Positions 472 through 48,800 of a DNA stretch of 64,000 nucleotides are shown here, piece by piece. Both the position numbers and the translations under genes were made by a program. The stretch spans positions 5,084,001 through 5,148,000 of the forward strand of contig CAKKNE010000004.1 of the NCBI GenBank assembly GCA_918797485.1. Reading direction: 5' to 3'. Below the pieces are notes generated by a model, which saw only the letters and a list, made by a program, of their open reading frames with translations, was not told the origin of the DNA and ran no database searches. Position 1 is the first letter of the stretch, and each line of letters starts with the position of its first letter. The stretch comes from Pelagomonas calceolata. Taxonomy: Eukaryota.

Positions 472-1722
472 ATGAATACCCAGGTCATCGATTTGACATC
501 TGAGGAGAGCTCGAGCACGCAGCGGTTGACCTCGTTCGAGGCGTCGACGGAGGCGGCCGCGGTGACGCCGGACACGAGCGGCGACGCGGCGCTGGCCGAG
601 CGCCTCGCACGCAAGGAGTCCGCGCGCGCGAAACCGAACGGCGACGCGCCGGACACGAGCGGCGACGCAGACCTCGCGGCCAAACTCGCGGGCAGCGGCC
701 CCGCGGACACGAGCGGCGACGCGGACCTCGCGGCCAAACTCTCGGGCAGCGGCCCCGCGGACACGAGCGACGACGCGGCGCTCGCCGCGCGTCTCGCGGG
801 CCAGGCGGACCGCACCGCGGGCGACGCGGCCTACGCCGCGCGGCTGGCCGCCCGCGACGCCCGCACGGAGGGCGACGCGGCGCTGGCGAGGCGCCTCGCC
901 GCCCGCGACGCCCGCACGGAGGGCGACGCGGCGCTGGCGAGGCGCCTCGCCGGCGCGGACGACGCGAAGAGACGCCGCGTCGAGCCCGCGCCCGTCGCCG
1001 CGCTCGCGTCGATCCGCCGGTTGCTCGGCGCGGATCCCGCCGACCTGGCGCGGCCCGACGAAGCCGTCCGGCTCTACCCGCAGCCGGACGGCTGGAGTTG
1101 TGGCTACCGCTGCCTGCAGACGCTCGTGTTCGCGCTGCGGCGCGCCGGCGCCGAGTACGGGACGGCCCTGGCGTCGGCGGGCCTCGCGGAGCCCGGCGGC
1201 GTCGCGTCGGTCTCCGCCGTCCAGGCGGCGGTCGAGCGCGGCTGGACCCGCGGCTTCGACCCCACGGGCGCGCAGCAGACGCGAGACAGGCTGCGCGGGC
1301 GCTTTCCGTTCGTGGGCTCGCGCGAGTGGATCGGCTGCTGCGAGGCGTGCGTCGCGCTGCGGAGCGCCGGCGTCCGCGCGGACGTCCGGGGGTTCGACGG
1401 GCGGCGCGACGGCCTGGCCGCGCGGCGCCTCGTCACGTACCTCGCAGACTACTTCAAGAACGTCGTCGGCGTCGGATCCGACGACGTCTGGGGCGCGTCG
1501 TGCCTGCCGCCGGCGCTCGTCTGCTTCGGCGGCCACAACCGCTGCGTCGTCGGCGTGTCGCGCGACCGGCTCGTGCTCCTCGACCCGAAGTGGCGCGAGC
1601 CGCGCCTCCAGTGCATGGCGCCGGCGGACCTGGCGCGCCACGCGCGCCAGTGGGAGTGCCTGGTCGTGCGGCCGGGCGTCGCCACGCGTCCGCTGCCGAC
1701 GGAGCCCGGCGATCCGGCCTGA
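472..1722 (+). CDS. ZUP1: ZUP1/ZUFSP-like deubiquitinase (peptidase C78) with N-terminal tandem MIU-like repeats
   Basis: ATG at 472. Catalytic-Cys motif DGWSCGYRCLQTL, GFDPTGAQQ...WIGCCE and His/Asp motifs GGHNRCVVGV...LLDP fit the C78 family. Seven D-A-x-L/Y-A-x-[RK]-L motifs precede the catalytic domain. Confidence 0.85.
   Translation: MNTQVIDLTSEESSSTQRLTSFEASTEAAAVTPDTSGDAALAERLARKESARAKPNGDAPDTSGDADLAAKLAGSGPADTSGDADLAAKLSGSGPADTSDDAALAARLAGQADRTAGDAAYAARLAARDARTEGDAALARRLAARDARTEGDAALARRLAGADDAKRRRVEPAPVAALASIRRLLGADPADLARPDEAVRLYPQPDGWSCGYRCLQTLVFALRRAGAEYGTALASAGLAEPGGVASVSAVQAAVERGWTRGFDPTGAQQTRDRLRGRFPFVGSREWIGCCEACVALRSAGVRADVRGFDGRRDGLAARRLVTYLADYFKNVVGVGSDDVWGASCLPPALVCFGGHNRCVVGVSRDRLVLLDPKWREPRLQCMAPADLARHARQWECLVVRPGVATRPLPTEPGDPA
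571..951 (+). repeat. Coding tandem repeats (54-bp and 51-bp periods) encoding MIU-like helices
   Basis: gacacgagcg recurs at 571, 652, 706 and 760; acggagggcgacgcggcgctggcgaggcgcctcgcc recurs at 865 and 916. Confidence 0.9.
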
Positions 1723-13028: not shown

Positions 13029-13062
<34 letters not shown>

Positions 13063-27632: not shown

Positions 27633-27885
27633 GAAGTCTGTTGCATGCTTACTCGAGAAACTCGTCGCCGCGTTCCTCGCCTTGTAGTTTACCGTGGCGG
27701 CCGCCGGCGCTGCTGCCCGGGATCACTAGAAGACTAATATAAAGTGCGCACGGCACGCTTACCCGGAAGGGGGGAGCGCGCGCGCGCGGGGCAAGGTCAC
27801 GCCGATGGGGGGAAGGTGACGGCGGCGCCGCGCCCGGGACCGATTCCGGGGGCGGCGGCCGGGCCACCGGGAAGGGAGGCGGCGT

Positions 27886-30800
27886 CTACCCCGCCGGGGC
27901 GACGGCCGAGAGCTGCGCGCCGGTGCACGTCGTGCCCTCGTTCTCGCAGAACGCGGACGTGCCGACCGAGTTGCGCGCGGCCACGCGGACGTAGTAGCGC
28001 CGGTCCGGCGTGAGGCCGCTCACCGTCACGCTCGTGCTCGAGGTCGTCACGGTGTGCGTGTCGGTGCCGTCGAACAGGGGCGACTCGGACGCGGTAATCT
28101 CGTATTCAAGCAAGGCTGCGCCGCCCGTCGACTCGGGCAGCGCCCCGCCGAGCGCCACCGGGCACTCCGACGGGTTGGCGGCGAAAGCTGCACATGGGAT
28201 GCCGTGGTGAGGGACGCGCGGGTAGAGCCACGCGACGTCGACCTCGCCCTCGCCGCCGGGGGCCGCGCTCAGCGAGCGCGGCGCCCCGGGTATGACAAGC
28301 GAGGGCGCGGCCGACAGCGTCGCCGACGCGGCCCCGTAGCCGGCCGCGTTGATCGCCGAGACCTTGACGTAGTACGTCGTGGACGGGCTCAGCTCGTCGA
28401 TGGTGTACGAGAGCGCCACGGTTGCGTCGACGTCGACCGTGCCCTTGTGCGGCGAGGCGCTGAGGCTGTTGAAGCTCGAGCTCGTGTCCCACTCGACGCG
28501 GTACGCCGTGATGCTGTCGCCGCCGTCGTCCTCGGGGTAGCCGTAGCCCAGGGTGAGCATGCTGTCGCTCGTGACGCCCAGCACGACGTTGGACGGCGCG
28601 CCGGACTCCTCGTAGGGCGCCGCCGACGACGGCGCCGACCCCTGCGGCGTGCCGCAGCCCTGGCCGTTGCAGGCGGACACGCGCACGTAGTACCGCTGCC
28701 CCTTGTCGAGGCCGGAGACGGTCTTGTAGAACGGCGAGCCGCCGTCCAGGTAGGTGACCGCGACGCTCTTGACCTCGCCGAGGAAGCTCGCCGAGGTCGC
28801 GTACTCGACCTTGTACGACGTGATCTCGTCGCCGCCGTCCCACGTGGGGGAGCTGAACTGCGTCCGCAGCTGCGACGCCGAGACGGTCGAGAGCACGACG
28901 CTCGTGGGGGGCCCGGGCGTCGTCATCGGCTTGCTCGGGGCGCCGGCCGCCTGCGGGAGCGAGTACCCGACGCTGTTGACGGCGGTCACGCGCGCGTAGT
29001 ACTGCTGGCCGTTCACGAGGCCCGAGCCGTCCGACGGGACGACCAGGGTCGTGCCCGTGCACGACGCGTACGTGTCGCCCGACTGCACGAGCGTCGCGGT
29101 GAGCCGGGGCGCGTACCGGCCGCCGGAGCTGCCGACCGTGCCGTTCGCGTCGCGCAGGGAGTTGTCGTTGATCGACACGACGAAGTCGTTCGCCGCGCTC
29201 TCGGGCGCGGCGTCCAGGAAGGTGACGTACCACTCGTAGCCGCCCGCGTCGTCGGGGCCGTACCGGGCCACGTCGACGCCGAGGTCGAGCAGCTCGTCCA
29301 GCGCCTCGAGCTTCGCCTCGACCGAGCCGGACGCGCCGAGCCGCCCGCCCGGCGCGCAGTAGGCCCCGTCGGTCTCGCAGAAGATCTCCGACGTCGTCTC
29401 CGTGCCGCGGCCGCCGTGCACGCGCGTCAGCGCCGCGTTGCCCTTCGTCGTGCCGATGAAGGGGACGTCGTTGCCGGTGTCCCGGTCGGTGAGGTTGAAC
29501 CAGGCGCTCTCGGCGTCGATGGCCCCGCCCTGCATCCACTGCGTGGGGAACTTGGCCCGGTACACCTGGCCGCCCCACTTCTGCTCCGCGAAGGTCACGA
29601 GGTCGCCGTCGAAGAGGATGCCGGCGAGCGAGCCCGACGCCGTCACGCGGGCCGAGTTGTTCGCGACGCTGAACGTCCGGCATTCCAGCGACCCGGCCGT
29701 GCAGAGCCGCTCCGACGCGTAGATCTCGTCGCTCGACAGCGCGACGGCGTCGTAGGGGATCGGGTCCGTCGTGTAGGCCACGGCCGCCTTGGACACCTGG
29801 AGCTGGAACGTGCCGCCGACGATGGGCGACGTCGCGCCGACGCCCTCCGACGCGACCTTCCACACCGTCGGCTTGTTGGCCGTCGGGCAGTAGAAGTCCT
29901 CCCGGATCGGGTCGTCGAACGTGTCCGTGGGGTCCAGCTCGACGCGGTAGTGCGTGACGGTCGCGCCGCCGTCCGACTCGGGCTCGCCGAAGCTGATGGT
30001 CAGCGAGTCGGCGTCGCCCGGGTTGACGCCGACGGACACGTCGGTCGGCGGGTCGGCGATCTGCTGCGGGACCTCCGTGGGGGCGGCGGTCCGCGCGGGG
30101 CCCGCGCCGAACGCGTTGACGGCCGCGACGCGCACCGAGTACGCGACGCCCGGCTCGAGGTCCGTGATCGTGTACGCCAGCGCGTCGGCGTCGACGAGGG
30201 CGGAGCCGTAGCGCGCGGGCGCCTCGCCGACGACCGAGTCGTCGGCCTTGAGGCCCGTCACGTCGTCGACGGCGTTCTCCGCGCCCGTGATCGACGAGTC
30301 CGCCGCGCCGCCCAGCGCCGGGTGGTAGAGGTACTGCGCGTCCTTGAAGAGCGTCGGCTGGTCGCCGACGTGCGTCGCGAACGTGATGCTGTACTCGACG
30401 CCGCGCTCGCCCGCGCTCGGCGCGTACGGCCGCTCGGAGACCGCGACCTGCTTCACCGTCGGGAGCAGCTCCAGCGCCTCCGCGAGCTCCGCGGCCGTCG
30501 CCCGCGCGCTGACGTAGGGCGAGTAGGCCGAGCCGTCGAAGCCGAGCCGGAAGAAGCCGCGCACGGGCTGCGTCTCGTTCGTCGAGGCGTCGACGTCGCC
30601 GTAGATGCGCAGGACCTGGACCTCGGCGCGGCCGCCGGACCGCGCGCCCGGGCGCACCTCGGAGACCTCGACCTCGAGGTCGTCGCCGATGCTCGCCTCG
30701 GGGATGTTGATGGGCACGAGGTCGCCCTCGTTCAGGCCGCCCGGCGCGCAGTCCGCGAAGGTCACGGTCCAGGCGTAGCCGTGGTAGTTGTTCGTGCTCG

Positions 30801-33800
30801 CCCGCGTCACGCGCACGTCGCCCGCGACGTACTCGTGGTCGAAGGGCGCGTCCGTGGCGTGGCCGAGGTTGACGAGCGCCGACCGGAGGCGCGACGCGGC
30901 GGCGTTGTAGTTCAGCTTTGCGGTCGTGACGCCGTGGGTCGTCGCCGACCGCCCGTTGGAGAACTGCACGACGAAGCCGCTCTCGGAGTCGGGCGTCGTG
31001 CCCGCCGCCCACGTCGCGCGGATCTGCTGCTCCTCGCAGACCGTCTCGGCCGTGAACCACTCGACGAGGTAGCCCGTGATCGGGCTGCCGTTGTCGCCCG
31101 CGAGGCTCGAGTTCGTCGCGTTGCCCGGGGCGAGCCACGAGACGTCGAGCTCGGTGATCGGCGCGCCGCTCCGCGTCAGCGCCGTCGACACCGCGAGGGC
31201 GTCGCAGGCGTCCGGCGCGGCGGCCGGCGCCGTCGGGTCCGCCGCCACGCCCCACGGCGACGGGCCCACCTCGTTCACCGCGGCGACGCGCGCGTAGTAG
31301 ACCACGCCGCTCTCGAGGCCCGTCAGGTACGTCACGGCGGGGCCGCCCTCGTGGAGCACGTTCTCCGCCGCCGCCGCCGCGGTGACGTTCACGCGCCGCA
31401 GGTTCGTGCCGAAGCTGAGCGACGTGTCGTACTCGACCAGGAAGTGCGTCAGGTTCGAGCCGCCGTCGCTCACGGGGAGGGCGAACCGGAGCTGGAGCTT
31501 GTCCCGGCCGGCCAGCGCCAGCCGCGCCCCGGTGGGCGCCAGGGGCACCTGGTCCGCCGTCACGCCGGAGATGGTCTCGGACCACCGCACGGTGTCGACC
31601 TCGGCGAGCGGGTCGTAGAGCTCGTTCCGCGCCGCGATGCGGAAGTAGTACGTCGTGTTCACCACGAGGCGCGCGACCACCGAGTCGTAGGGCGGCGTCC
31701 CCGCGATGGGCGCGCCCTGGATCAGGCAGCTGCCGAACTCGGCCGTGTCGCAGTGCGCCGCGTCGCCCTCGGCGGCGTCGAACGTGTCGGCCGTGTCCCA
31801 GTGCAGCGTGTACCCCACGATGGTGCCGGAGGCGGTGGGCGGCGGCGACCAGAAGACGCGGATCTCCGACCCCGAGAGGACCTCGAGGGAGAAGCTCCCG
31901 ACGGCGTCCGGCACGCGCTGCGGCGTCGCCTCGGCGACGTCCGACCAGGGCCCGGGGCCCAGCGGGTTCACCGCGCGGCCGCGGACGTACACGGTGCCGA
32001 AGGAGGGGAAGCCCGTCGCGTAGAGGCACGCGGCGCAGCCCGCCGGCCGCACGCCGACCGACGCGTCGACCGGCACGAGCGCGTGCTCGGGGCTCGAGAT
32101 CGGGCGCGGCGCCCCGTTGCCGAGGAACCGCACCTCGTACTCGTAGCCGCCGGCCCAGCCGCGCACGGCGAGCTCGTCGCCGCTCGCGCCCTGGTACGAC
32201 GTGTCCACCGCCGACGAGTGGGCCTCGGCGAGGTGGAGCGCCGTCGGCGCGCCGGCGGCGTCGTAGCTGTCCGCCACCGAGTACCAGGCGCCGCCGACCG
32301 TGATCAGGTCGGACGCCTGCGGCGCGTCCTCCGCCGTCAGCCCGGGGCAGGTCAGCACGGGGTGGCCCGTCTCGCCCCGGCACGTCGCGAGCGCGTCGAC
32401 GCGCGCCGCGTACGTGCGCTCGACCGCCAGCGCGCCGACGCCCGGCAGGGCCTCGAGCGCGTGGCGCACGGCCCGCGCCGTCGCGTCGGCGCCGAGCAGC
32501 GGCGTCGTGGCGCCGCCGTAGCCGAGGCGGAAGTGGCCCGCGACGGCCGGCGTCTCGAAGCCGCGCGCCTCGAAGGCGCCCGACGCGATGCGGACCATCT
32601 GCCGCGTGTAGTCGGCCGGCATGTCGTACTCCGTCACGTCGGCCTCGAAGGAGGCCGTCGACGACGTCTGCAGCTCGACCTTGTCGACGGAGGCGCCGCA
32701 CGCGCCGCGCGTCACCTGGCTCTCCGAGCACTCGCGCGGCACGTCGTACGAGATCGAGATGGCGTCGCCGCGCGCCTCCGAGCCCTTGAGGACCTCGGCG
32801 ACGTGGATCGCCGCGCCGGCGCCCGTGAGCCGCGCCCCGACCGGCCGCAGCTCGGGCACGTCGCCGCGCGCGGTCGTGAACGTGATCAGGAAGGACTTGC
32901 CGCCCTCGGAGGACGCGTCGTCGCGGTCCGAGACCTCCACCGACCCCACGGCCCCGATGGCCTCGAGCGCCGCCGCGACGTCGGCGGCCGCCGCGTCGTG
33001 CGGGAGCGTCGTCGTCGAGTAGCCGTCGACGGTCTCGAGCGAGTACTCGCCGCCGAGGACGTTGCCGTCCCGGACCGTCGTCACGGCGACGGCCGCGCCG
33101 GACCCGGTCAGCGAGCTCACGACCTCGAGCGGCGGCACGTCGCCGGCGCGGTCGAGGAACGTCACGGTCCACGCGTAGCCGTCCTGCGCGTCCGGGCCCG
33201 ACCGCGTCACGGCGACGGACCCGGCGTCCGTCAGGGAGAGCGCCGCCGCGAACTGCGCCGCGGAGGCGTCGGACGCGATGGGCTGCGACGCCGCGACGGT
33301 CATCGCGCCGGCGATCGAGTTGCCGTCGATGACCGTCGACACGGCGCACGACGCCGCCGACGCGACGAAGGCCGCGTCGCCGCGGCAGGCCAGCGTGGGC
33401 AGGTCGCCGGGCGGGTCCCGGTACGTCAGCGTCCACGTGAGGCCCTTGCCCGTGTCCGTGATCTCGACGGCGACCTGCACGTCGCCGATCACCGGCAGCT
33501 TCTCGAACTCGCGCTTGAGCTGCCGCACCGTGACCGGCGAGTCGTCCGCCGCCCGGAGGTCGAAGCCGCCCCGGTCCGGGTTCGTCACGTTCAGGAAGGC
33601 GTCGACGCCGTCGCGCCACCCGAACGGCGTCAGCACGCCGTAGACCTCGGTCGCGAAGAGGTCGGTGCACGCGGTGTCGCCCGTCACGGCGCCCACCTCG
33701 ACGTACGACGCGTTCAGGCCGTACCGGTCCGGCGGCTCGGCGCGCAGGCCGTAGCCGTCGAAGTAGACGTCGAACGCGTAGCCGTAGTGGCTCGCGGCCG

Positions 33801-36800
33801 ACGCGTCGCCCCGCCGCACGACGCGCACCGAGTCGAACATGCGCATGGAGATCAGGGCCTCCTGCACGTCCTCCGCGGAGGCGTCCCAGGCCAGGCACGT
33901 CGAGTTCCGCGCGAAGCGGCCGCCCGTGTTCGGGCCGCCGCGGTCGACGGTGACGCGGAAGGCGCCCTCGACGATCTTGGCCGTGGCGCCGACCACGATC
34001 GTCGCCTTGGCCGTGTGGGTGCCGAGGCCGCGCACGCCGTAGCGGTCCGGCGCCGGCGCGACCGTCACGTTCGCGCCCGCGGCCTTGCCGGCGTAGCCGT
34101 AGACCTCGGCGGCGCAGAGGTGCGCGCGCGGCGGGGGGATCTTCCCCTGGAAGCCGTCGTAGGAGATGGTCCAGGAGTAGCCGTAGTTCGACGACGCGGC
34201 GCCCGTGCCGCTCCGCGCGACCGCGACGTCGTCGGCCGACGCCGCGAAGCCCGTCGCGACGATGGCGGCCGCGACGTCCTCGGCCGGCGCGTTCCAGGGG
34301 ATGCAGGCCGTCGTGAAGTTGTCGTAGATCATGGGCCCCTTGTCGTTGTTGGCGCGCGGCAGCGTGAGGTTCAGGGCCCACGCGCCGCGCGTGACCGTCG
34401 CGAGGGCCTCGAAGGCCACGACGTCCGCGTCCGGGAAGTAGACCGAGAAGTTCCCGGCCACGACCTGGCCGTAGGCCGCCTCGATGGTCACCTCCTGCGT
34501 CTCGAAGATCTCGTCGGCCGTCGCCGTGAAGACCTGGACCTCGTCGACGTGCGTCGCCGCGAGCGTGAGCGCCTGGACCTCGTCGGTGTGCTCCGCCGTC
34601 GCCAGCGCCAGGCCGACCAGCTTCGGCGGCGGCGCGGCCGGCGCGCCGACGGCGGCCGGCGCGCTGAAGTTGCCGTAGCCCAGCGCGTTGCGCGCGGCGA
34701 CGCGCACCGAGTACGGCACGCCCGTCTTGAGGCCGCCCAGGGTGATGCCCGTCGCGGCGGAGCCCTGGACCACGTCGTCCACGACCGTCGCGCGCACGCC
34801 GTCCGCGAGCTGCGTCGCGTCGACGCTCATGGGCGGCTGGTCGCCGAGCGCCTCGTCGAACGCGACCGACACGTAGAAGCCGCTGACCTTGTAGACGCCC
34901 AGCTCGGTGCCGTTGGCGCCGCGGTAGGCCCCGGGCCGGAACGCGTCGTCCGGCCGGCCCAGCGGGAGCTGGGCCGGGAGGAACGCGTCCGTGCGGTGGC
35001 CGGCGCCCGCGCGCACGACGGCCGTGCTCACGGTCTCGGCGCCGTCGCCGGCGCGGTCCATGGCGAAGTTGCGCGACCACGGCGACGCGCAGTCGCTCAT
35101 GTTCACCTCGACGCGCGGCGCGTCCATGACGCCCACGAGGCCGTCGAAGTAGATCGAGTAGACGAAGCCGTTGGGCGCCTCGATGGCGTCCGTCGACCGC
35201 GTCACCGTCGTGGCGCCGGCCACGCCGAGGTGGTGCTCGATGAGGTAGTTGAGCTCGAGCTCGACGTCGGCGTCGCGCGCGTTCCACGCGAGGCACGCCG
35301 ACGTGTTGCCGTAGGGCAGCTCGCGCTGCGCGCGGGCGCCCAGCCCCGCGGCGCCGATCGAGACGCGGTAGGCCGGCGTCCCGCCCTTGGCCCAGCCGCC
35401 GCCGTCCGCGTCCTTGACCGTGATGGTCTGGACCGCGACCTCGGGCTCGCGCACCGCGAAGTACTGCGGCACGAGGAAGCCGTCCGCGTGGCCCTCGCCC
35501 TCGAGCAGGACCTTGGAGCCCAGCGTCAGCTCCAGCGGGTCGGCGCCGCCCCGCGCCTTCATGGACCCGGCCACGGACGCGCCGGGCTTGAGCGTGTCGC
35601 CGCACGCGTAGAGCTGGACGACCCACGTGTCGCCGACGGCGTGGCCGACGCCGCTGCGGAAGCGGAAGTAGACGCCGTCCTCGTCGAAGACCCCGGGGTT
35701 CGAGGGATGCTCCGAGCGCTCGATGGGCACCCAGGCCGTCCGGGCCAGCTGCGCCGCGTACGTCTTCCGGCCCTCGCCCTCGACCATGCGGCTGAAGACG
35801 TAGGTGTCGTTCTTCAGCAGCGTGCCGTTCACGTCGTAGACCGCCGGGGCCGTGATCTCCAGCAGGTAGGTCGCCACCGCCGGCACGCGGCTCGAGTCGT
35901 AGACCTCGAACTCGGCGTCGTCGAGGCCCGCGGCGTTGCCCCGGGCGTTGTAGTAGACCGTCTTCTCCTGCAGGGTCATGCCGTTGTGCACGGCGAAGAC
36001 CGCGGGCAGGTCGCCGGACATGAGGTCGCCCACGTAGTCCAGCTCGTAGGTGTAGCCCCAGGCCGTGCTCCCGTCGCCGAAGCCGCTGCGCGCCACGGTG
36101 ATCTGCGGGTGCGCCACCGTGAGGTTGCGGTAGGTCATGTTCAGCGCGTCCTGGATGCGCTCCTCGAGCACCTCCGCCGGGACGCCCCACTCGAAGCAGG
36201 AGCCGCCGTAGTAGTTCTGCTGCGCGCCGACCGTGTTCGCCGTGACGTGCGTGAGGTGGTTGAGGAAGAGCGAGAAGTAGCGGCCCGTCGCGGGCTTGTC
36301 CGTCTCGGCCTCGGCCGCCAGCGTGAGCAGCTGCACGGACCGCGAGCCGCCCTCGCGCGTCGTGGTGACGCGCGCGTCGCGCGCGCGGCCGCCGACGTGG
36401 GCCCACGAGGCCGCGCACTGGCCCGACGCCTCGTCGACGATCTCCAGCTGGTCCGCGTTCGCGAGGTGCGGGCCGACGAAGGCCACCTCGTAGGCGTAGA
36501 CGTCGCGGCCCCGCGTGACGGTCTTGACGGCGAACGCCGGCGCGCCGGCCAGCGACTTCCAGAGCTTCTTCCCGGCGCCGCAGCCGTCGGACGGCCGGAT
36601 GACGCCGCCGGTCGCGTCGCAGTCCACGGCCCGCTCCAGCTCGAGCTGGGCGGCCGTGCCGTGCGTCGCCGTCGCCGCGACCGTGTAGAGGCGGAACGCG
36701 TCGACCGACCCGCCGATGCGGACGCGGTCGCCGGGCGCGAGGAACTTCGCGACGTCCGCGGAGAGCTCGACCGTCGTCGAGTTGTGCACCGTCGTGGCCG

Positions 36801-39800
36801 TCGCCGCCAGGAGCTGCTCCGGGCCCGCCGCGTCCTGGCAGCCCGCCTCGGAGCCGACGGCCACGACCTCGATCTGCGGCGCGTTCGCGCCGAGGACGCT
36901 GGACGTGGCGCCGCCGTAGCCCGAGGCCGCGCGCGTGTTGTCCGGGCCGCGGAAGGTGAAGACGTAGGCGTAGCCGTGGCCGTACCGCCCCTCGCCGTCG
37001 CCCTCGCGCGCCACGGCGACGTGGCCCGCGTCGTTGGCCACGCCGTCGTTGTTGAAGTCGAAGGCCAGCGCGTCGAACGCCGCCTCGACGGCCGCCGCCG
37101 ACGCGCCGTAGGCGATGCACGCCGTCTCCCGGAACTCGCCCTCGTGCGTGACGCGGAGCTTGAAGAGGCCCTCGGTGTTGGCGTCCGCGTAGTAGACGTC
37201 GTCGGCGACGACCTGGACCTCCGTCCGGCCCAGCGTCGCGACGCCCAGCCCCGACTTGCGCACGGACACCGCGTGCTCGACCTTGAAGAGCTCGACGTCG
37301 TCGACCGAGAAGTGGACCTTGGCGGAGATGTCCTCGGTCAGGCGGAGGGCCAGGCCCTGGTACAGGACCTCGGCGACGGTGAAGACGCCGTCCGTGCCGT
37401 TCACCCGGACGCGGTCCCCGGGGAAGACCTTGCCGTCGAAGCGCGGCCGCCGGTCGACGTGGTCGTCGAACTCGTCGCGGCGCCAGAAGCGCGACGCGTT
37501 CGAGGCGAAGAGGAGCGTGCCCGCGTAGTGGTTGGGCGGGTCGTCGGCGTCCCGGTTGATGGGCCGCAGGTCCACCGTGACGTCGAGCTTGTGGTCCGTC
37601 AGCGACGGCAGCGCGTTCAGCGCGGCCTCGACCGCGGCGCCGTCGGCGCCCCAGTCGAGGCAGGGCGTCGTGAAGCGGCCGTACCTCAGGCGGAAGTACG
37701 CGCCGGACAGCGCGCCCCCGTCCAGGGCCAGCGCGATCTCCTGCCGCTCGGTCACGCCGCCCTGGACGACCGTCTGGACGCCGATGTCGAGGCCCGTGAA
37801 GTTCGACCCGGGCTGCTGCCTGTTGCCCCAGTCCTTGTGGCCCTGCTTGAAGCCCACGGGCCAGAGGCGGTTGCACGTCGACGAGATGAGCTCGAGCTGC
37901 GGCACGTCGCCGACGCCGACGCCCGAGTAGCCCGTCCCGAAGTAGATCGAGTAGAGGAACGCGTCGCCGTGCGCGCCGCGGCCCGACCGCGACACCTCGA
38001 CGCCGCCGCTCAGCGCGTCGAAGCCGTTCAGCGCCGCCGCGACGTCCGCCGCCGACGCGCCGAACTTGAGGCAGTCCGTCGTCTGCGCCGAGCCCGAGTA
38101 CATCATGCGCAGCCGGAAGAGGTCCAGCGACGCGTTGACGTGGTCCGGCGTCACGTCCGCGGCCACGTAGAGGCGCTGCACCTCGGCGCCGGAGCGGATC
38201 ACCTCGTGCGTCTCGCCGCCGACGCGGACGAACGCGCCCGTGGGCGCCGTCCGCACCAGCGACGCCTGGGGCGTGCCCACGACCGGCGAGTCCTCCTTGT
38301 AGGCCAGCAGGCTGCCCAGCCGCGTGGCGCCGTCGGCGGCCGCGCCCCGCGCCGCGAAGCCGCCCCGGTCGCCGCCGAGCCGGAAGACCTCGCCCGGGTT
38401 GAGCGCGTCCGCCAGCACCGTCTCCAGCGTCCCGCCCGCGCCGAAGGTCCCGTCGTACCGCAGCGACGCCGTCGCGCCGTCCCGGTCGACGGTCGCCCAG
38501 ACGCCCTCGACGCGCTGCAGCGCGACGTCCGACCGCGCGACGCGCAGCTCGCCGACGGTGTCCATCTGCTCGAGCACGTACTCCATCTCGTCGTGCGCCT
38601 CCTGCCACTCCATGGGCTCGGACCACGCGCCGCGGACGCCGAGCGCGAACGCGCCCGCGAAGGGCGTCGAGCCGGACCGCAGCACCGTGTTCACGACCTG
38701 GGGCACGTTGCCCTGGAGGCCGTGGCCGTCGACCGTGATCGAGTCCAGGTTGCCCGCGCCCGGCGGGAACGTGAAGCCGCGGTACGCGCCCGGGTTCTTG
38801 GTGAACTTGACGCGCCACTCGAGGCCGCCGCGCTCGCCCTCGGGGGCGACGGCGACGGCGCCCCAGCCGCCCGACGCGGCCGAGGGGTAGGACAGCCGCT
38901 CCACGGCGACGCCGCCCACGGTCAGCATCTCCTCGAGCTTGCGCTCGAACCGCTTGGCGGACTCGTTGTACGCGACGCTGCGCGCGCCGAACGGCGCCTC
39001 GAAGTCGATCTCGAAGGCGCCGGACATGCCCTCGCTGCCCTTGGTCGTCTCCCAGACCGTCGGCACGTACACGACGCCGTTCGTGGCCGGGTCCTGCGTC
39101 ACGTTCAGGTCCACGACGTCGCCCGACCCGGGCGGCACCTGCTCGTGGTTGTAGACGAAGGTCACGCGCCACTCGACGACGCCGTGCCGGCCGTAGACCT
39201 CGCGCGAGACGTTCACGACGCGGCGGCCCAGCGACGTCGTCTCGAGCCACTGCTTGACGGAGCCGGCGCCCTCGCCCGGCGCGTTCCACTGGAGCTGGCT
39301 CGCGCCGAGGGGGTCGTCGCCCAGGGCCGAGAGGGACCCCTTCGGGTCGTCGCCGCCGACGTGGAAGCGCGTCAGGTTGCCGCGCGTCACGACGCCGTCG
39401 ACGCACCCCGAGAAGGTGCAGTTGTTCGGGTTCGTGCGGCCGTCGACCTCCGTCCGCGCCGTCACGTTCTGCAGGTCCGTCTCGAAGGGGTTGCAGCCGC
39501 CCTTCTGGTAGTGCCGGAACCGGTCGGCGTTCGCGCCGGAGCCCTTGGCCGTGTAGTTGAACTGCAGGCCGTCCGCGGACTCGGGCGGCGCGACGTCGCC
39601 CGCGCCCCGGAACGACACGCGGTACTGCCAGGCGTTGGGCGCCTCCGTCTCCGAGAAGTGGCGCGACACCGACACGTTCGCCAGCGCCCGCCGCACGAAG
39701 GCGCGCGCGGACGCCTTGCCGATCCGGGCGAGCGCGTGCCGCACCTGGGCGTCCGTCGCGTCGTAGGGCAGGCAGTCCTCGAAGAACTCGCCCGCGAAGC

Positions 39801-42800
39801 CGATGCGGTAGGACGCGCGCGCGAAGTCGTCGCGGTCCGTCCAGGCCTTGGCGGCGTGGTAGCTCGACGCGTTCGAGCCCCAGCCGGCGTACTCGGGGTC
39901 CCGCACCGCGAAGGACTGCACCTCGTCGCGGCCGGGCGGCGCGGTCCACTTGTCGGCCACGTCCAGGAGCGTGACCTTCTGGCAGTCGTAGGCCGCGCCG
40001 CCGCTCCCGGCGCTGCAGTCGCCCGCGAGCTCCGACGCGTCGAAGCCGCCGAACTTGGGCACGTCGCCGGGGCTGTTGCACCGGTCCTCGACGGTGTCGC
40101 GCTGCTCGCAGTCGCCGAAGCGGCCCTCGCCGCTCGCGCCCGCGTCGCGCAGGAAGGTCACGGTCCACGTGTGGCCGCCGTTGTTGGCGCCCTCGTTGAC
40201 GGGCGACCGCGTCACGAGCACGTCGCCGACGTTGGGCATCTTCTCGAGGATCTCCTCGACGCTCGTGCCGTCGCCGCCGCTCTCGAGGACGCCGGCCTGC
40301 GCGTTGTGCCGGATCGGGTCCGACGTGTAGCTGCCGCGCATGTTGATGATGTCGTGGCCCGTCGTGTCCAGCGTGACGCGGAAGGACCCGCCGAGGGGCT
40401 CCGTGCCCTTGACGTACTCGGCGACGCTGCACGCGTCGGCCGGGAGCGCGCCCGACGACGAGTACATGCCGCTGTCGACGCAGGAGATCGGGGGCATGTC
40501 GCCGCAGTTCTTGCCCCACTCCTTGCTGACGCCCGTCGCCCACGTGTCCGTCCACGTCGTGGCCTCGCCGACCCAGTTGCCCGCCATGGAGCCGTCGTCG
40601 GCGTGGACCACGGTCGGGTCGCGCCACGACGCCGAGTCGAAGGTGATGGACCAGACGTAGCCGCCCACCTGCGTGCCGCCGCTCAGGTCGGGCCCCGTCG
40701 TCATCGGGCCCGAGCGCGACACCTTGACCTTGGACGGGCTGATGGACGAGAGCATGTTGAGCTGGTTCTCGACGTCCTGGGCCGAGGCGTCCGTCGCCAG
40801 CATGCCCGTCGTGTAGCCGCCGAAGCGGAGCTGGAACGAGCCGTAGAGCTGCGCGCCCTCGAGGTCCGTGACCGCCGTCGCCGCGGCGCCCGGGCCCTGG
40901 AGGAGCGTGGACGTCGCCGTCAGGAGCGGCACGTCGCCGCCGACCTCCGCCGACCGGTACGTGATCGAGTAGGAGTAGCCCGCGGCGCGGTTCGGCGACC
41001 CCGACCGCGCGACGTCGACGACGTCGCGCCCGGCGAACAGCTCGGCCTCGAAGAGCTCCTTGAACTCGGCGGCCGTCAGCGCCGTGTAGTGCGACGTGTT
41101 GATCACCGGCAGGTTGTTCTGCGCCGAGCAGAGGTCGCCGAGGCACAGGCCGTACGTGCCGCCGACCTGGCCGCCGTCGCGCGCCTCGCCCGTCGAGTCC
41201 TGCGCGAAGGTGAACGAGTCCGAGACGCCCTGGAACGTGTCCGCCGCGCCCGAGTTCTCGTCCTCGACCTCGACGACCACGGCGCTCTTCCCGACGTCCG
41301 GGTGCGGCGGCGCGAGCGGGTTGAGGCCGAGGCCGGACGTGCCGTAGGTGACAGTCGTGTTCGCCTCGACGCCCATCTGCGGCACGTTGCCGACGGCGCT
41401 CAGGAACGTGACCGTCCAGGCGTAGCCGCCGGCCCAGCGCGTCTCCGTCGACGGGACGTAGGGCGTCCGCGCGACGTCGACGAGCCCGAAGGCCTTGGAG
41501 GCGCCGTCGTCGGCCTGCACCCGCTCGAGGATCTTCTCGAGCCGCGCGGCCTCCTCGTTCCAGCGAATGGCCGTCGTGTTGTAGAGCTTGGGCTTCTTCA
41601 CGCGCTCGTTCGGGAACCGCGTCGAGAGCGCGAAGTCGCCGTCGGCCAGCGAGCCGTCCTGCAGCGTCGTGACGTTGCAGATCAGGGCCGACGCCGGCTG
41701 GCCCGCCGACGACGACGACATGAACGCCGTGTCGCAGCGCATGGGCTTCAGGTCGCCGGGCTGGCCGAGGAACGTGACCTCGACCTCGAGGCCGACGTGC
41801 GTCTTGTTCATCCACACCGCCCCGGGGTCGGAGACCGCGAGGAGGTTCGCGGCCGACTCGATCGTCGGCACCGCGCGCAGCGACGACGAGAACGTCGCCG
41901 CCGACGAGTCCACGGGGATCACCGACGTCTCGCGGACGCGGTCGACGGAGCACGCCTGCGACACGCCGGAGGCCAGCGTGGGGTCGCTGTAGAACGTGCC
42001 GACCTCCGCGTCCGTGGCGTCGGCCGTGGACCCGGTCCACGGCGCGGACAGGCTGACGTTCGCGTAGGGGTAGGCCAGCTCGTCGCGGTCGAAGATCGCG
42101 TCGATCTGCACGTAGGCGTCCGTCGCGCCGCCGACGCGGATCCAGTCCCCGACGTAGATGTCGTCCCGCAGGCCCCAAAGCTTCGCCGAGTCGGACCCCG
42201 CGACGAGGTTCACGACGTCGAGCTTCTGCGTCCGGGCCTCGCACTCGTACGAGAGCTTGATGGAGCCGTCGGGCTGCGCGCCCTCCTGCACCGTGAACGC
42301 GTCCTGCTTGTCGAGGTACAGGGCCCCGATGTCCTCGGGGCAGCTCGGCGAGCACGACGCGTCGCAGCACGTCGCGAGGGTGCCGACGATGCCGGCGCCC
42401 AACGGATATGCGCCAGTGGTCGCGCCCGTGCCGTCGTTGGCCTCGTAGCCGCCGGTCACGTGGACGGTGGTCGGCTCCTTCGAGCTGACGACCAGGGCGG
42501 GCACGTTGCCGCGCAGGTGGCCGCCCGTGAACTCGACGCGGTACTCGACCTTGTAGACGCCGCCAATATCGTTTTGGCCGCCGACGAACTCCTTCGTGAG
42601 CGTCACGTTGAAGCCGCGGTAGCCCTCGTCGCCCGTGGCGCCGGGCGTCTGCGGCCCCTGGGCGTCCTCGATGAACTTCACGCCGTTGATCGTCATGCCG
42701 TTCAGGTGCTCCTCCATCTTGTCCTGGCCGATGAGCGCCCCCGAATCGAATAAATTAAATTCCTTGGCGACGCAGTCGTTGGCCGGGTCCGCGTCGCAGG

Positions 42801-45800
42801 ACAGCGTGCCGAGCGACGGCATGTCCTCGTCGACACCGCGCTGGCAGAAGTTGACGCCCTCGGCGCTGCCGCAGTCCGCGATGTCGAACTTGACGCTGAT
42901 TTTTTCCAGCGCCGGCACGTTGGCGAGCTGCGCCTCGAGCGCGGCCTTGGTCGCGGCCACGGTGCCCTGGTTCGTGTTGCAGTCGAGGAGGTAGAACCCA
43001 AAGGTCTGGACCTCGTCGACGCGCTTCACGGCGTAGGTGATGCGCTGCTTCTCGGGGACGGACGCGACCGTCGACCGGACGATCTGGACCTCGTCCTGGA
43101 ACGTGGCGGCCAGCGTCAGCGTCTGGACCTCGTCGACGTCGTTCGCCGTCGTCGTCACCGTCTGGACCTCCGGCGTCACCTCGTCGGCGGACGTCGTGAT
43201 GGTCTGGATCTCGTCGATGCCGTCGATGTTCGTGCGCACGGTCTGGACCTCGTTCTGCACCCAGACGCTGCCGCGCACGGACTGGACCTCGGAGTGCACG
43301 TCCGCGTCCAGCCCGACGAGCTGGTACTCGGACACGACCGGCGCCAGCGCGACGTCGGGCGTGCCGAAGGCCTCGTCGGCGTCGAACTCGACGCGGAACG
43401 CGTCGATCGTCGCGCCGCCGTCCTTGGGCGGCACGGACCAGGCCGCGTAGATCGACTCGGCGTCGACCGCCGGCGCGATCGCCTCGCTCGGCGGCGTGCC
43501 CGGCACGCCGTCGAGCGTCGTCGCGTACGCGGGCTCCGTGGCCGCCGCCGGCGACGCGCCCTCCGCGTTGAAGGCCGTGACGCGCACGTAGTACGTCTTG
43601 CCGCGCTCGAGCACGCGGCTCTCGACGCCCGTCAGCGGGTCCCGCCCGCCGATGAGGTAGGCCGTCGCCGAGGCCGGCACCATGACGCGCTCGGCCGGCG
43701 ACGAGAAGTCGTCGCGCACGTCCCACTCGACGGCGTACTCGGCGATCGCCGCGCCGCCGTCGCCGCCGTACTCGCAGCCCGGCGTCGCCGACGGCGCGCC
43801 CCACTCGACCTGGAGGCCCACGCCCGACGTGACGTCCAGCGTCGGCGCCCGGGGCGGCCCCGGCGTCCGCACCGTGCCGACGGCGCTGCTCGGGCTCGTC
43901 GCGGCGAACGGCGAGTAGTCGTAGCCGTTGTAGGCCGCCACGCGCACGAAGCGGGGCACCGACGCGGACACGGCCGCGATCTCGATGTCGTAGCACTCGG
44001 TCTCCGCGCCCGGCGTCGCCGCGACGCTCGCCTCGTAGCCCGACGTCTTGATGTTGCGGAAGTCCTCCGACACGTCCCACTGCACGAGGTAGCGGACGAC
44101 GGCCTGGCCGCCGTCGCTCGCCGGCGGCGCCCAGGCGACGCGCAGCGCCGTCGGCTCGAGGGCGTACAGCTCCGCGGTCCGCGGGACCGAGGGCGCCTCG
44201 ACGGGCGCGATCGCGCCCGTGACGATGGGCCCCTCCTGGCCGAGCATGCCCGCCTCGGCGATGGACTCGCCGTACCACGCCTCCGACCCGTCGCCCGAGC
44301 CGTCGATGCCCGGGCCCGTGTAGGCGCCGCGGCCCTCGTCGGTGATCGCCGCGACGCGCACGAAGTAGCCCGTGCCCGAGTCCAGGCCGGCGATGGTGTG
44401 CTTGATGGCGGCGCCCGCGACGACCTCGCTGCCGTAGTCGGCCGGCGTCGTGCCCTGCTCGAACGTCGCCACGCGCGCGGCGGCGTCGGGGCCCGTGAGC
44501 ATGTCGTCCAGCGGGTAGATGGGCGGCACGTCGCCGCGCGGGTGCCAGAACTTGACCTCGTAGTTGTAGCCGTTGTTGTTGACCGTGCGGACGACGTCCA
44601 CGTTCGAGATGGTCGTGAGGCCCTCGAGCGCGGCCTCGACCTCGGCGGCCGTGGCCTCGCACGAGAGCGGCGCCGTGGTGTGGCCCTCGAAGCCCAGGCG
44701 GAAGGTGCCCCGCAGCGGCGCCTGGCCCGGCCGCACGCGCTGCGCGCGCAGCGTCGGCGCCGTGCCCGCCCAGAGGTCCGACTCCCGCGCGTCGAGGAGC
44801 GGCCGCGGCCCGACGAAGCCCACGAACTCGATCGTCCACTCGTAGCCGTGGTCCCAGCGGTAGAGCTGCGCGCCGCCCGTGTCCTCGGAGATGTCCGAGC
44901 CCCGGAAGTTGAGCACGCTGGCGGCGTCGTCCGCCGTGCTCTCGCACTCGGCGCCGTCGACGTCGGGGTCCGTCTCGCTGTGCACGCGCAGCTCGATCTT
45001 CGTGGTGGTGCCCATCTTGAACTCGCCGACGCGGAGGACCTCGCCCGCCAGCATGATGACGCTCCGGCCCTCGTCCTCCAGCGCGGCGGCGAGCGCGTTC
45101 CCGTTGCCCTCGTTCAGCTTGATCGTGCACCCGCCGTGCCCGATGTAGCCCTTGTAGCCCCGCAGGGCCCGCATGGACAGGCGTCGCGTGACGCGCACCT
45201 CGCCCGACGACCCGAGCCGCTCCAGCGCCTCCTTCACGGAGCCGGCGCCCTCGGCGGGCGCGTCGACGGGGATCGGGTCCGTCGTCTCGCCGCCGATGGA
45301 CAGCGTGAAGTGGCCGTTGAGGCCCAGCTCGTCCGCGCCCGTCGTCACCGTCTGGACCTCCGTCACGCCGTCGCTCGCGGAGAGCGTGACGACCTGCGTC
45401 TCGGGCGTGCCCGGCTCCGAGTACCACTCGACCTCGTAGCCCTGGATCTTGGCGCCGCCGTCGTCCGACGGCGGGGACCAGCGCGCGATCAGCGACGTGC
45501 CGGAGCCGACGGCGACGCTGACCTTGTTCGGCGCCGAGGCCTGCGTCTTCGGGACGGCCGCGACCTCGGCCGAGACGGGCCCGTAGCCCGCCCGGTTGTA
45601 GGCCGTGACGCGCGCGTGGTACTCCCGGCCCGCCGTCAGGCCCGAGAACGCGTACGCGAAGGCGTCGCTGCCCGCGACGCGCTCCGTGACGTGGACCTCG
45701 GCCGTCGTCTCGCCGAAGTTCGTCGTGCCGACCATGAGGTTGGCGTCGGCGGCGCCCTGCGTCAGCGTGTGCCGCTGGTGCGTGAACGTGACCGTCCACG

Positions 45801-48800
45801 CGCGCGTGTTCAGGTTCGTGTCGAGGTCCTCCATGCGGACGTTCGTCGCGAAGATGGTGTCGAGGGCCTCGAGCCGCGCCTTCACCTCGGCGGCCGTCGC
45901 GCCCACGGCGATGGGCCCCGTCTCCTGGCCCTCGAAGTTGAGCGTGAAGGAGCCCGTGACGGGCGAGAGCGACGCGAGGTAGACGGTCTGGACCTCGTAC
46001 GAGAAGCCGCCCGGCAGCACGTCGCAGTCGCCGTCCTGCAGCGTGGCGACCTCGATGCGGGCGTCGTCGCCCACGAGGTACGTGTCGTCGGCCGTCAGCG
46101 GGCCGACGTCGCCGTAGACGCCGACGAAGACGACGCGCCACGTGTAGCCGCGCGCCGCGCGCGAGCGCGTGACGCGCACGGGCGGCACGCCGACGTCCCA
46201 GACGCCCGTCAGCTTGGACACGGCGTCGGCCACGTCCTCCGCCGCGACGTCGTACTTCAGGGCCTTGGTCGTGCGGCCGCCCCAGCTCAGCGTGAAGGTG
46301 CCGCGCCGCTCGGCCTCGGGCGCGCGGAAGTGCGTCGTCACCGTCTGGACCTCGTGCACGAAGGCGACCTCGTCGACGACGTACGCCGGCGACGCCGCGT
46401 CGAAGGCGCTGCTGTCGTCGAGCTCGACGCGGTAGGCCGTGACCGTCGCGCCGCCGTCGAGGTGGGGCGGGCGCCAGGCCAGCGACAGGCTCGTCCCGGA
46501 GTAGTGCTCGCCCAGCACGACCGCCGTCGGCCGCGACGGCACGCTCAGGCCGGGCGTCACCGTCCGCTCCTCGGACGGCGGGCCGAAGCCGAGCGCGTTC
46601 CGCGCGCTGACGCGGAAGCGGTACTCGTGGTCCGGCGAGAAGGCCAGGTACTGGGGCGGGTGCCGGCCGGGCGCCACGCCGTTCCGCACCGTGTCGACGT
46701 GGATCGACGTCCGGTTCGACGAGCTCGCCCAGGCCGAGACCCAGTCCGCGTGCACGAACTGCGCGTCGACCTCGAGGGCCGTCGCGCCGGCGTGGCGGCC
46801 GCCCCAGAAGGTCAGCGTGTACACGTAGCCGAACTCGGACGCGGCGTCGCCGCGGCCCGTCCGCTTGACGTCGACGCGGTCGACCTCGTTCAGCTTCTCG
46901 AGCGCGGCGCGCACGTCGTCCTCGGACGCGCCCCAGGCGATGGGCTCGGTCACGGTCGCCGCGGCCTCGCCGTCCGCCAGGTACCGGTCCGAGTGCGCCA
47001 GGCTCAGCGTGAAGTTGCCGCGGACGCCCTGCCGGTTCGCGGCGCACTCCGCGGACGCGCAGCGCAGCGCGACCGTCTGGACCTCGGCCGGCGCGCCCAG
47101 GATCTCGTCCCGCGGCGCCGCGCCGAAGGGCAGGCGGTAGCGCAGCTGCGCGCCCGTGCCGCGCCAGTTCTTCTGCGCCGTGGCCCGCACCGTGTTGATG
47201 GCGTCGAGCTTGCGCGCGCCGCCCGGGTCGGCGGCCAGCGGCGACGCGAAGTCCTTGAAGACCATGCAGTACTCGTAGCCGTTCGCCCAGCCGAAGGCCG
47301 TCGCGCCCTCGGCGCCGACGTCGAACGCGCCCCGGAGGAGGAGGGACGCTGCGTCGACGCGCCGGGCCACGTAGCGCTGGCGGCCGATCCAGACGTCGTC
47401 GCCGTCGGCCAGCGCGCCGCGGAGGTCCGCCGTCGTCGCGGCCGTCACGAGGTACGGGAAGACGTTCACGGTCGGCGTCCCCGCGTCGACGTCGACGTGG
47501 AGCTTGCGGTCGAGCAGCAGGCAGTCGGCGCCGCAGCCGAAGGCGTCGACGTCCTCCACGGCGTACGTCTGGCCGTCGACGACGATGCGCGTGCCGTTCA
47601 CCGCCGAGCCCGGCCCGTCCGCGGCGTCCGACGCGTTGAGCAGGTCGTGGCCGCCGGGGTGGAGGTAGACCACGCGCGAGTAGTCGAGGCCGCCGCTCAC
47701 CCGGGCCGCCGTCGGCGACGCCTGCCACACGGTCGTCGCGGGCGCGAAGCTCACGCGGCCCGGCAGCGCGGCGCGCGAGCGCGTCGTCGACCCGATGAAG
47801 GCCTGGTAGAGGCCCTGCACGTCCTTCGCCGGCGCCTCGCCCGCGTTCAGGTCGTACTGGTGCACGCGGTGGAGCTGGACGTCGCCGCGGAACAGGTCCG
47901 ACGGCGCGAAGGGCGTCGAGAGCCCGAAGACCGTGACGCCGCCCGCCGCCGCGACGTTGAGGCGGTCGAGGCCCAGCGTCAGGTTGCCCCGCACGAAGCG
48001 GTGCAGGTCCTTGATGCGCGGGTAGTAGGTCACGTCCGTGATGAGGCGCGTGGGCCCCGCGTCGTTGTCCCACGCGTCCGTGGCGTTCGACAGCCGCAGG
48101 GGGTCGCCGGCCGCGACGGCCGTCGACGCGTCCCCGAAGGCCACGGCGTAGGCCGCCGTGCCGTTCGGCAGGTAGACCGGGAGCGAGAGCGCGCCGTCGG
48201 CCGCGCCGAGCATCGCCGCGCGCGCGACGACGTCGAGCGCGTGCAGCTCGGCGAGGACCTTGCCGTGCGTCGCGTCCCAGCGGATGTCGCCCGTCTCCTG
48301 GCCGCCCACCGACAGCCGGAACGTGCCGGCCATGTCGCGCGCGTCGGCCATCGTCGACACGTTCACGACCGGGTAGACGTTCGCCGTCGCGTCGCCGCCC
48401 GTGAGCTTGGACGCGCCCGCCGCGAGCTGGTCGACGCGGCCGGCGGCCGGCGGGAAGGTCACGGCGAAGGCGACGCCGTAGGGCGCGTCGGCGTGGTCGT
48501 GCTTCGTCACCTCGACGCCCGGCACGAGCTCGCTCAGCAGCGCCTCGAGGTCGCGCGCGTGGCCGGCGACGGGGAAGCCCCGGATGACCTCGCCCGCGAA
48601 GTAGAGGTCGAGGGCGCCGCCGAGCGCCGTCGTCGCCTCGGCGACGACGACCTGCACGTCGCCGTTGCCGCCGGCGCACGTCTCGTGCGAGCCGATGGGC
48701 ACGATCGTCGCCGTGACGTTCGACTTCGTCAGCGTCGCGTCGCCCGTCTGCTTGACGCTGAACTCGGCGCAGCCGCCCATGCCCAGGCCCGTGGCCGCGT

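What the first reader, a model, noticed from the sequence alone, without database searches (positions are those of the whole stretch)
32770..34630. Smaller nested sets obey the same counting rule
Seen: three consecutive strands (DEVQAL, DEVQVF, FETQEV; ~34590-34490) are followed by three matching bodies (GNFSVY...GDLPTL, which itself contains inserts; AGAMTV...GDVPPL; GGEYSL...GDVPEL) before the FN3-like sequence resumes. A 2-strand/2-body set lies at ~45410-44450 (PETQVV, TEVQTV; NGHFTL, RGTFRL). These are independent internal support for the nested grammar.
Basis: partly seen in the sequence, partly recalled or inferred. Interest (0 to 1): 0.7.

Follow-up and report, generated by a model that had tools for sequence, protein, structure and literature searches.

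The report
Russian-doll arms of giant algal protein
In a giant protein of a stramenopile alga, runs of two or three short strands are followed by the same number of strand-less domain bodies, and these are predicted to pair first-with-last, so the chain likely runs out and back to build stiff side arms from a domain shared with phage tails.

Summary
Confirmed. Both sets lie in one transcribed minus-strand ORF of at least 12,037 aa: a likely secreted FN3 glycoprotein conserved across stramenopiles and labelled 'titin-like' in databases. The repeated unit is one N-terminal EVQ strand plus a body, homologous to the CTE-like domain of mycobacteriophage Bxb1 (E 2e-29).

AlphaFold2 models of the 3-set (pLDDT 89.5) and the 2-set (80.5) pair strands and bodies last-in-first-out, and the split FN3 around the 2-set re-closes. 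The 3-set holds two further whole domains inside its first body; their strands are degenerate here but canonical in most homologues.

Independent checks agree. An unrelated architecture (P0008) balances 28/28 and 15/15. An orthologue with 13 instead of 9 strands has 13 bodies, the four extras innermost. Covariation tests were weak or inconclusive.

Recursive nesting itself is known: cyanobacterial RpoC2 (six levels), flagellin/FliD, and Bxb1 gp23, which nests this same domain three deep at another loop. Ten literature searches found no description of the split after the first strand, or of depths of 9-14 in a eukaryotic protein family. Function is inferred: rigid extracellular side arms.

The parts
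27886..63999 (-). Giant ORF, at least 12,037 aa, open at its 5' end; FN3 backbone with inserted CTE-like alpha/beta domains
   Evidence: transcribed, polyA at about 27740, no intron joints listed in 27000-46500
31924..34638 (-). FN3 domain that hosts the 3-set in its A-B loop (first strand 34594-34632, next strand 32740-32766) and a further insert in its C-C' loop
   Evidence: read from the sequence and homologues; Pfam does not see this split FN3; FliD rows span model 26..648
34555..34584 (-). 3-set strand S1 (DEVQAL), predicted to complete the last body E
   Evidence: model range 35..639 on Bxb1 gp23 388..525, Z 14.8, 103 residues, rmsd 1.8
34516..34545 (-). 3-set strand S2 (DEVQVF), predicted to complete body D
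   Evidence: ranges about 42-50..540-549
34474..34506 (-). 3-set strand S3 (FETQEV), predicted to complete body C
   Evidence: 64..456; 62..456; one row each, Z 4.6 and 5.0
34435..34455 (-). First hairpin strand of body C (GNFSVYF)
   Evidence: conserved as G.F..RFP in homologues
34054..34431 (-). Insert A: whole domain with its own, here degenerate, strand
   Evidence: Gln in 58 of 62 rows; model 87..216 on Bxb1 capsid 307..396, Z 10.1
33574..34017 (-). Insert B: whole domain with its own, here degenerate, strand
   Evidence: Gln in 47 of 62 rows; model 229..373
33322..33570 (-). Rest of body C (helix, WTLTY, GDLPTL, closing strand)
33064..33315 (-). Strand-less body D (AGAMTV...GDVPPL...)
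32782..33057 (-). Strand-less body E (GGEYSL...GDVPEL...)
44314..45546 (-). FN3 domain split in its C-C' loop by the 2-set
   Evidence: model range 1..421 on LAR FN3, 94 residues, Z 14.4, rmsd 2.1
45376..45405 (-). 2-set strand S1 (PETQVV), inferred to complete body 2
   Evidence: strand at high confidence in the model; pairing by elimination
45334..45363 (-). 2-set strand S2 (TEVQTV), predicted to complete body 1
   Evidence: model 61..277 on gp23 327..566, 102 residues, Z 14.3, rmsd 1.7
44728..45318 (-). 2-set body 1, with a small beta-rich insert at 44854-45180
44452..44712 (-). 2-set body 2 (RGTFRL...GDVPPI...)
34762..43332 (-). Large set used as a check: 9 strands (42997-43332) and 9 strand-less bodies
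   Evidence: hand parse; orthologue mapping

Best explanation
Each set is a predicted Russian-doll stack of one phage-tail-like (Bxb1 CTE-type) alpha/beta domain, inserted into a loop of an FN3 domain, in which the chain likely runs outward as one long strand, giving 13 residues to each domain, and folds the bodies on the way back, so that the first strand completes the last body. Shown: the motifs, equal counts, 13-residue period, conservation, homology to the Bxb1 domain, transcription. Predicted: the pairing order S1-E, S2-D, S3-C and, in the 2-set, S2-body 1. Inferred: the domain's two ends lie together and the loop after strand 1 lies at the far end, so each insertion there lengthens a two-stranded rod by about 4.3 nm (13 residues at about 3.3 A), giving arms of about 9, 13 and 39 nm for the 2-, 3- and 9-sets. 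The 3-set arm would be capped by two more domains. The likely role is as stiff, glycosylated spacer arms on a secreted FN3 backbone, a branched 'bottle-brush' protein of the cell or flagellar surface.
For: (1) AlphaFold2 3-set: pLDDT 89.5, pTM 0.75, S1-S3 are strands at 93-98. Of the 50 rows of the wide fold search, 41 fall into five nested classes (18 S1+E, 18 S2+D, 1 S3+C, 3 A, 1 B), 7 reach into the FN3 strands, and the 2 that cross classes have rmsd 7.4 and 12.8 (my count). (2) 2-set: FN3 halves rejoin and S2 pairs with body 1. (3) Same domain in solved Bxb1 gp23, profile E 2.1e-29: three N-halves then three C-halves, with solved ranges 388..525 inside 327..566. (4) P0008, another architecture: 15 strands/15 bodies, and 29/28 with one false hit inside a helix at 530, running depth never negative. 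(5) Orthologue P0021 has 13 strands and 13 strand-less bodies by hand. Window bodies 2-9 best match its bodies 6-13 and the first five strands stay in register: extras are innermost, as nesting predicts. (6) In 131 simple units the two top strand couplings are to the closing strand in antiparallel register (z 4.4, 3.6). (7) Secreted: 102 sequons against 49+-6 shuffled, no membrane-like stretch, homologues begin with hydrophobic leaders; P0026 is named 'secreted protein'.
Against: No coordinates or contact lists were available; pairing is read from first and last aligned residues. S3-C rests on one row per search at Z 4.6-5.0, and 2-set S1-body 2 on elimination. Covariation within 3-set orthologues is inconclusive (32 rows; 62 rows, Neff 38). 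A model trained on 234 simple units favours nesting only weakly (p about 0.03 over 91 non-independent runs; p 0.49 in P0008 alone). Automatic counting over FN3-bounded blocks matched exactly in only 11 of the 35 blocks with any nesting (23 within one; 7.5 expected by permutation), which I put down to missed degenerate motifs. No experimental structure or localisation exists; rigidity, arm length and function are inferred. The window lacks the N-terminus, so a signal peptide is not shown for this copy.
Confidence: 0.86

Rival explanations
1. Counts match but pairing is in order (first strand with first body) or swapped between molecules, so that the strands act as donor strands linking separate chains into a polymer.
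For: Folded as two chains, the S1-S3 segment gave weak support for binding body E: score 0.45, best of 3 controls 0.01, runs agree in at least 86% of contacts, partner pLDDT at least 48. The mark was reached by 51 of 78 solved complexes and 2 of 108 mismatches, but at 0.60 or under by only 5 of those 78 and by all 4 mismatches that passed; no contacts were given and likeness to solved Bxb1 domains may explain it. So a body may accept a strand from another chain.
Against: Both single-chain models are nested. In-order pairing would put S1 on a body 26 extended residues away while S1 and body E are both tied to adjacent FN3 strands (inference). In P0021 the new bodies come first while the first strands are the conserved ones.
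Confidence: 0.08
2. The strand runs are a separate repeat (for example a 13-residue solenoid or low-complexity spacer) and the bodies are complete domains; equal counts are inherited coincidence.
For: Automatic counts are imperfect; the orthologue sets are not independent samples.
Against: Solved relatives need the strand: matches of 90-103 residues include it. Balance also holds in unrelated architectures (P0008; P0026 6/6 in its first insert) and follows the 9-to-13 change.
Confidence: 0.04
3. Role variant: the nested architecture is right and the protein is specifically a component of stramenopile flagellar hairs (lateral or terminal filaments) rather than a general surface coat.
For: Named homologues come from oomycetes, centric diatoms, Aureococcus, Heterosigma, a brown alga and Phaeothamnion, groups with flagellate stages (recalled). 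No pennate diatom or Peronospora name appeared in these lists.
Against: Most hits are unnamed and the searches are length-limited, so absence is untested. The Ochromonas protein OCM6 hit is not significant (E 0.76) and 9UFE is not among the fold-search rows shown.
Confidence: 0.2

Closest known systems
Mycobacteriophage Bxb1 gp23 (tail tip cage/Dit, PDB 9D93) and the CTE domain of its capsid (9D9W/9D9X)
   Same: Homologous domain by sequence (E 2.1e-29) and fold (Z 14.8, rmsd 1.8); three copies nested one inside another. [quoted passage not shown]
   Different: gp23 is split after the helix and the following strand; these sets are split after the first strand, which gives runs of 13-residue strands. 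Host is a eukaryotic FN3 chain, sets branch, and depth reaches 9 here and 13-14 in homologues.
Cyanobacterial RNA polymerase RpoC2 Si3 region
   Same: Recursive insertion of one domain family, with branching; six levels, the deepest case described in a survey of 2.7 million ECOD domains (PMC13114784, passages seen).
   Different: Unrelated fold and intracellular. The small sets are shallower (FN3 plus 2-4 levels); the large set in the same ORF and P0008 would be deeper than six.
Flagellin and FliD outer domains; contractile phage sheath inserted domains
   Same: 'Out-and-back' chain path (PMC6248924, passages seen); weak fold likeness of the unit (FliD/FliC Z 5-6, sheaths Z 6-7.5).
   Different: No significant sequence match to flagellar families in Pfam or NCBIfam; Z under 8 may be only a common arrangement.
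Oomycete 'titin isoform N2B'-labelled proteins (Albugo CCA13958.1, Phytophthora PITG_01932)
   Same: Orthologues with the same 2-, 9- and 3-sets.
   Different: The label rests on FN3 only; no Ig or kinase domain was found in the window ORF, and the inserted domain has no Pfam model.

Membership tests
Bxb1 CTE-like domain | Sequence homology to CTE-like domains | tested here: met
   profile of 8 window domains: gp23 E 2.1e-29, capsid E 0.0019; PHROG tail and sheath families E 4e-05 and 9e-05
Bxb1 CTE-like domain | Same alpha/beta fold including the N-terminal strand | tested here: met
   Z 14.8, 103 residues, rmsd 1.8; Z 10.9, 90 residues, rmsd 2.4, on a predicted model
Bxb1 CTE-like domain | Assembly into the oligomers seen on the virion | not tested
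Nested (recursive) domain insertion, A1-B1-C-B2-A2 | Host domain halves rejoin around the insert | tested here: met
   2-set FN3, model range 1..421, Z 14.4; for the 3-set host only strands A-C were in the model
Nested (recursive) domain insertion, A1-B1-C-B2-A2 | Inserted domain is itself host, in last-in-first-out order | tested here: met
   ranges 35..639, 49..541, 64..456, 87..216, 229..373; predicted, not solved
Nested (recursive) domain insertion, A1-B1-C-B2-A2 | Model-free residue covariation between strand and distant body | tested here: inconclusive
FN3 | Pfam fn3 match and fold | tested here: met
Titin | Ig I-set repeats and kinase domain | tested here: not met
   none in the 12,037 aa scanned; the N-terminus lies outside the window
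Titin | Intracellular sarcomeric protein | not testable with these tools
   sequon excess and hydrophobic leaders in homologues point to secretion
Flagellin/FliD outer domain | Significant sequence or fold match | tested here: inconclusive
   Z 4-6.4 only; no Pfam or NCBIfam hit
Tubular mastigoneme (Ocm) proteins | Homology to Ocm proteins | tested here: inconclusive
   OCM6 E 0.76
Tubular mastigoneme (Ocm) proteins | Location on flagellar hairs | not testable with these tools
   needs proteomics or immunolabelling

The most novel reading that the evidence does not exclude
Stramenopiles build giant tree-shaped extracellular proteins from a phage-tail domain by a bracket-like grammar. Runs of donor strands open domains that later bodies close in reverse order, at four different loops, with branching and depths of 9-14, beyond the six levels reported as the deepest case so far. 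The 2- and 3-sets are the foldable proof, and arm length is set by the number of strands, a sequence-encoded ruler for a surface or flagellar-hair structure.
Probability: 0.6. Interest if true: 0.8.

Novelty: new variant of a known kind. Interest (0 to 1): 0.64.

Why it matters
The small sets are short enough to fold, and they fix the reading rule for the whole family. With it, 6,000-12,000-residue proteins of algae, diatoms and oomycete plant and animal pathogens, now labelled 'titin-like', can be read as branched trees rather than strings of beads. It would give a natural case of strand-body pairing across up to about 2,800 residues, deeper than the six levels reported in a 2026 survey, which makes folding order and rod mechanics testable. 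It also links a mycobacteriophage tail and capsid domain to a conserved eukaryotic surface protein and offers a length-tunable scaffold.

Tried and rejected
Artefact or shadow ORF: rejected (GC3 0.99; 61 full-length 3-set homologues; stranded polyA reads). Intron changing the count: no intron joint listed in two polyA runs; the oligo-dT contig is gap-free over the 3-set. 'Five bodies break the rule': rejected by homologue strands. Apparent counter-examples in the large set (7 of 34 new giant homologues scored 7 or 8 strands, 27 scored 9): alignment shows degenerate first strands in register in six, and a damaged ninth strand in P0207. Orthologue covariation: no clear signal. A post hoc scan gave the nested order the top single offset (S1-E z 5.7, S2-D 6.4, but S3-C -0.4); I do not count it as evidence. 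Automatic block counting: too noisy. Pfam and NCBIfam: no model for the unit. Single-domain phmmer against PDB and tblastn against phages: nothing. OCM6 link: not significant, and 9UFE is absent from the fold rows shown. No genome is held for this window and the Atlas gave no result. Earlier findings: none. Ten paper searches showed no description of this architecture. PITG_01932 appears only as too long for DeepLoc (10.1101/2025.09.30.679036, one passage). The primary Bxb1 paper and any paper on 9UFE were not seen; no supplements were read.
Full report
Setting. The finding lies in one minus-strand frame, 27886 to beyond 63999, of 12,037 residues without a stop. Pfam sees only FN3-type domains. 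GC at third codon positions is 0.99. Two polyA runs of one sample cover all 30 bins of 27000-46500 with first mates on +, that is a minus-strand transcript. An oligo-dT contig runs gap-free from a polyA end at 27740 to 37811, and no intron joints are listed. Named homologues are from Aureococcus, Heterosigma, Choristocarpus, Phaeothamnion, Thalassiosira, Discostella and many oomycetes, so the source is most likely a pelagophyte-like stramenopile (inference). The ORF has 102 N-glycosylation sequons against 49+-6 in shuffles and no strongly hydrophobic stretch; several homologues start with hydrophobic leaders.

Observation. A strand profile trained on two other architectures gives the five strands 14-20 bits and finds 8 triples at 13-14 spacing, against none in 300 shuffles. 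Across all fetched proteins strand spacing peaks at 13 (298 cases) and 14 (94). The 3-set sits between the first and second strands of an FN3; the 2-set sits after strand C of another. The 3-set reads S1 S2 S3, first hairpin strand of body C, whole domain A, whole domain B, rest of C, D, E. A and B have lost the EVQ look in the window but keep the Gln in 58 and 47 of 62 aligned rows; S1-S3 keep it in 61, 61 and 62. So three free strands face three strand-less bodies. The 2-set keeps two strands and two bodies in the oomycete orthologues shown (output partly cut).

The domain. A profile of 8 simple copies hits Bxb1 gp23 (9D93, E 2.1e-29) and the Bxb1 capsid (E 0.0019), and weakly PHROG tail families; Pfam and NCBIfam have nothing significant. 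In 131 simple units the two strongest strand couplings are with the closing strand at a constant antiparallel sum, which puts the two ends of the domain together.

Order of pairing. AlphaFold2 on aa 9770-10460 with a 57-row alignment gave pLDDT 89.5 and pTM 0.75, all five models 86.7-89.5. Coordinates are not returned, so I read pairing from structural alignments to compact solved domains. Model 35..639 fits gp23 388..525 (103 residues, rmsd 1.8, Z 14.8) and 35..637 fits the capsid domain (90 residues, Z 10.9): S1 with E. Other rows give 49..541 (S2 with D), 64..456 (S3 with C), 85..213 (A) and 229..373 (B). In the wide search 41 of 50 rows fall in these five classes, 7 reach the FN3 strands, and 2 cross classes at rmsd 7.4 and 12.8. 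For the 2-set (19 rows, pLDDT 80.5, pTM 0.58) the FN3 halves rejoin (1..421, Z 14.4) and S2 with body 1 fits gp23 327..566 (102 residues, rmsd 1.7, Z 14.3). S1 with body 2 is by elimination. The runs used no templates and the Bxb1 entries date from 2024, after AlphaFold2's training cut-off (recalled).

Checks that do not use the models. P0008 (7,591 aa, unnamed, different hosts) has one insert with 29 detected strands, one of them a false hit in a helix, and 28 bodies, reaching depth 14, and a second with 15 and 15; depth never goes negative. P0026 balances 6/6 in its first insert and 17/16 overall, one body being missed by the detector. Fragments and divergent proteins did not all balance automatically: of the eight others run whole, none ended at zero (end depths -4 to +4). 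In the large set, the window has 9 strands and 9 bodies, and P0021 has 13 and 13 by hand. Window bodies 2-9 best match P0021 bodies 6-13, and the first five strands keep register, so extras are late strands and early bodies; a global alignment placed one of the four extra strands at position 6. Among 34 further giant homologues 27 score 9 strands; the 7 lower scores are degenerate or damaged strands.

Results against or neutral. Covariation in 3-set orthologues is noise-limited. A pair model trained on 234 simple units scores nested -85, in-order -110, random -110+-13 (p about 0.03; runs not independent; nothing in P0008 alone). Automatic counts in 101 FN3-bounded blocks match in 77, but 66 are 0/0; of the other 35 only 11 match exactly. 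A two-chain fold of S1-S3 with body E gave weak support only (0.45 against 0.01; such low passes are more often wrong than right unless likely beforehand; no contacts; possible likeness to solved domains) and cannot say which strand binds.

How it likely works. Inserting a new copy in the loop after strand 1 leaves the old strand upstream and the old body downstream. Repeated, this writes n strands then n bodies. Each 13-residue step spans one domain, so the outgoing chain is one long strand and the bodies stack along it on the return, innermost first. Because each insert begins and ends at one FN3 loop, it would project sideways from the FN3 chain as an arm of about 4.3 nm per level (inferred). 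The most likely role is a stiff, glycosylated spacer on an extracellular scaffold; a flagellar-hair role is possible (about 0.2) and untested.

What is known. gp23 has three N-halves followed by three C-halves, and its solved ranges nest, so this domain is already seen nested, split at a later loop. PMC13252515 (passages) mentions the three CTE-like domains; the primary paper was not held, so I cannot say whether it describes the nesting. PMC13114784 (passages) describes six levels in cyanobacterial RpoC2 as its deepest example. PMC6248924 (passages) describes flagellin's out-and-back path. PMC7217449 (one passage and section 36) and PMC12582341 (passages) added nothing on function; a find in PMC13419713 returned no passage. 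Ten searches showed no account of this family's architecture; the library lacks most subscription journals and no supplements were read.

Verdict. Observation confirmed and interpretation supported. The small sets are a new variant of recursive domain insertion, modest in depth themselves, but they establish the rule for a conserved eukaryotic family whose larger sets would exceed the reported depth. Interest 0.64.

Noticed in passing
window 32044-32610 (-): The FN3 that hosts the 3-set has a second CTE-like insert in its C-C' loop, with a small beta-rich domain inside, so one FN3 carries two arms.
   Followed up: no
window 34762-43332 (-): Nine-strand set; its outermost body is itself split by about 1,200 residues holding further whole domains and a split beta-rich domain.
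   Followed up: partly
window about 54350-55870 (-), aa 2711-3215: Nesting at another loop: strand and hairpin, then inserts including a whole domain (aa 2977-3125), then the helix and rest of the outer domain.
   Followed up: no
window 45670-46356 (-) and about 30265-31040 (-): Two whole domains side by side in one FN3 loop (siblings, not nested).
   Followed up: no
P0008 234-4350 and 5358-7150: Unnamed 7,591-aa protein with balanced, branched sets (depth 14), one inside an NHL-repeat region; likely the cleanest model for the grammar.
   Followed up: partly
P0010: Token string shows strand-hairpin, strand-hairpin runs and runs of closing strands, suggesting nesting at two further loops.
   Followed up: no
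P0026 family (Thraustotheca 'secreted protein'; P0044, P0089): A second stramenopile family with 4+2 and 4-strand sets in FN3 loops.
   Followed up: partly
L001:10928-12985 (Bxb1 gp23): Three N-halves then three C-halves of the same domain; solved ranges nest.
   Followed up: yes
window 8750-13159 (-), 16450-17466 (-), 445-1722 (+), 26889-27632 (+): Neighbours with Pfam hits: DEAD-box helicase, glycosyl hydrolase 88, peptidase C78, sigma-70 regions 3-4 (likely a plastid sigma factor); no link to the finding seen.
   Followed up: no
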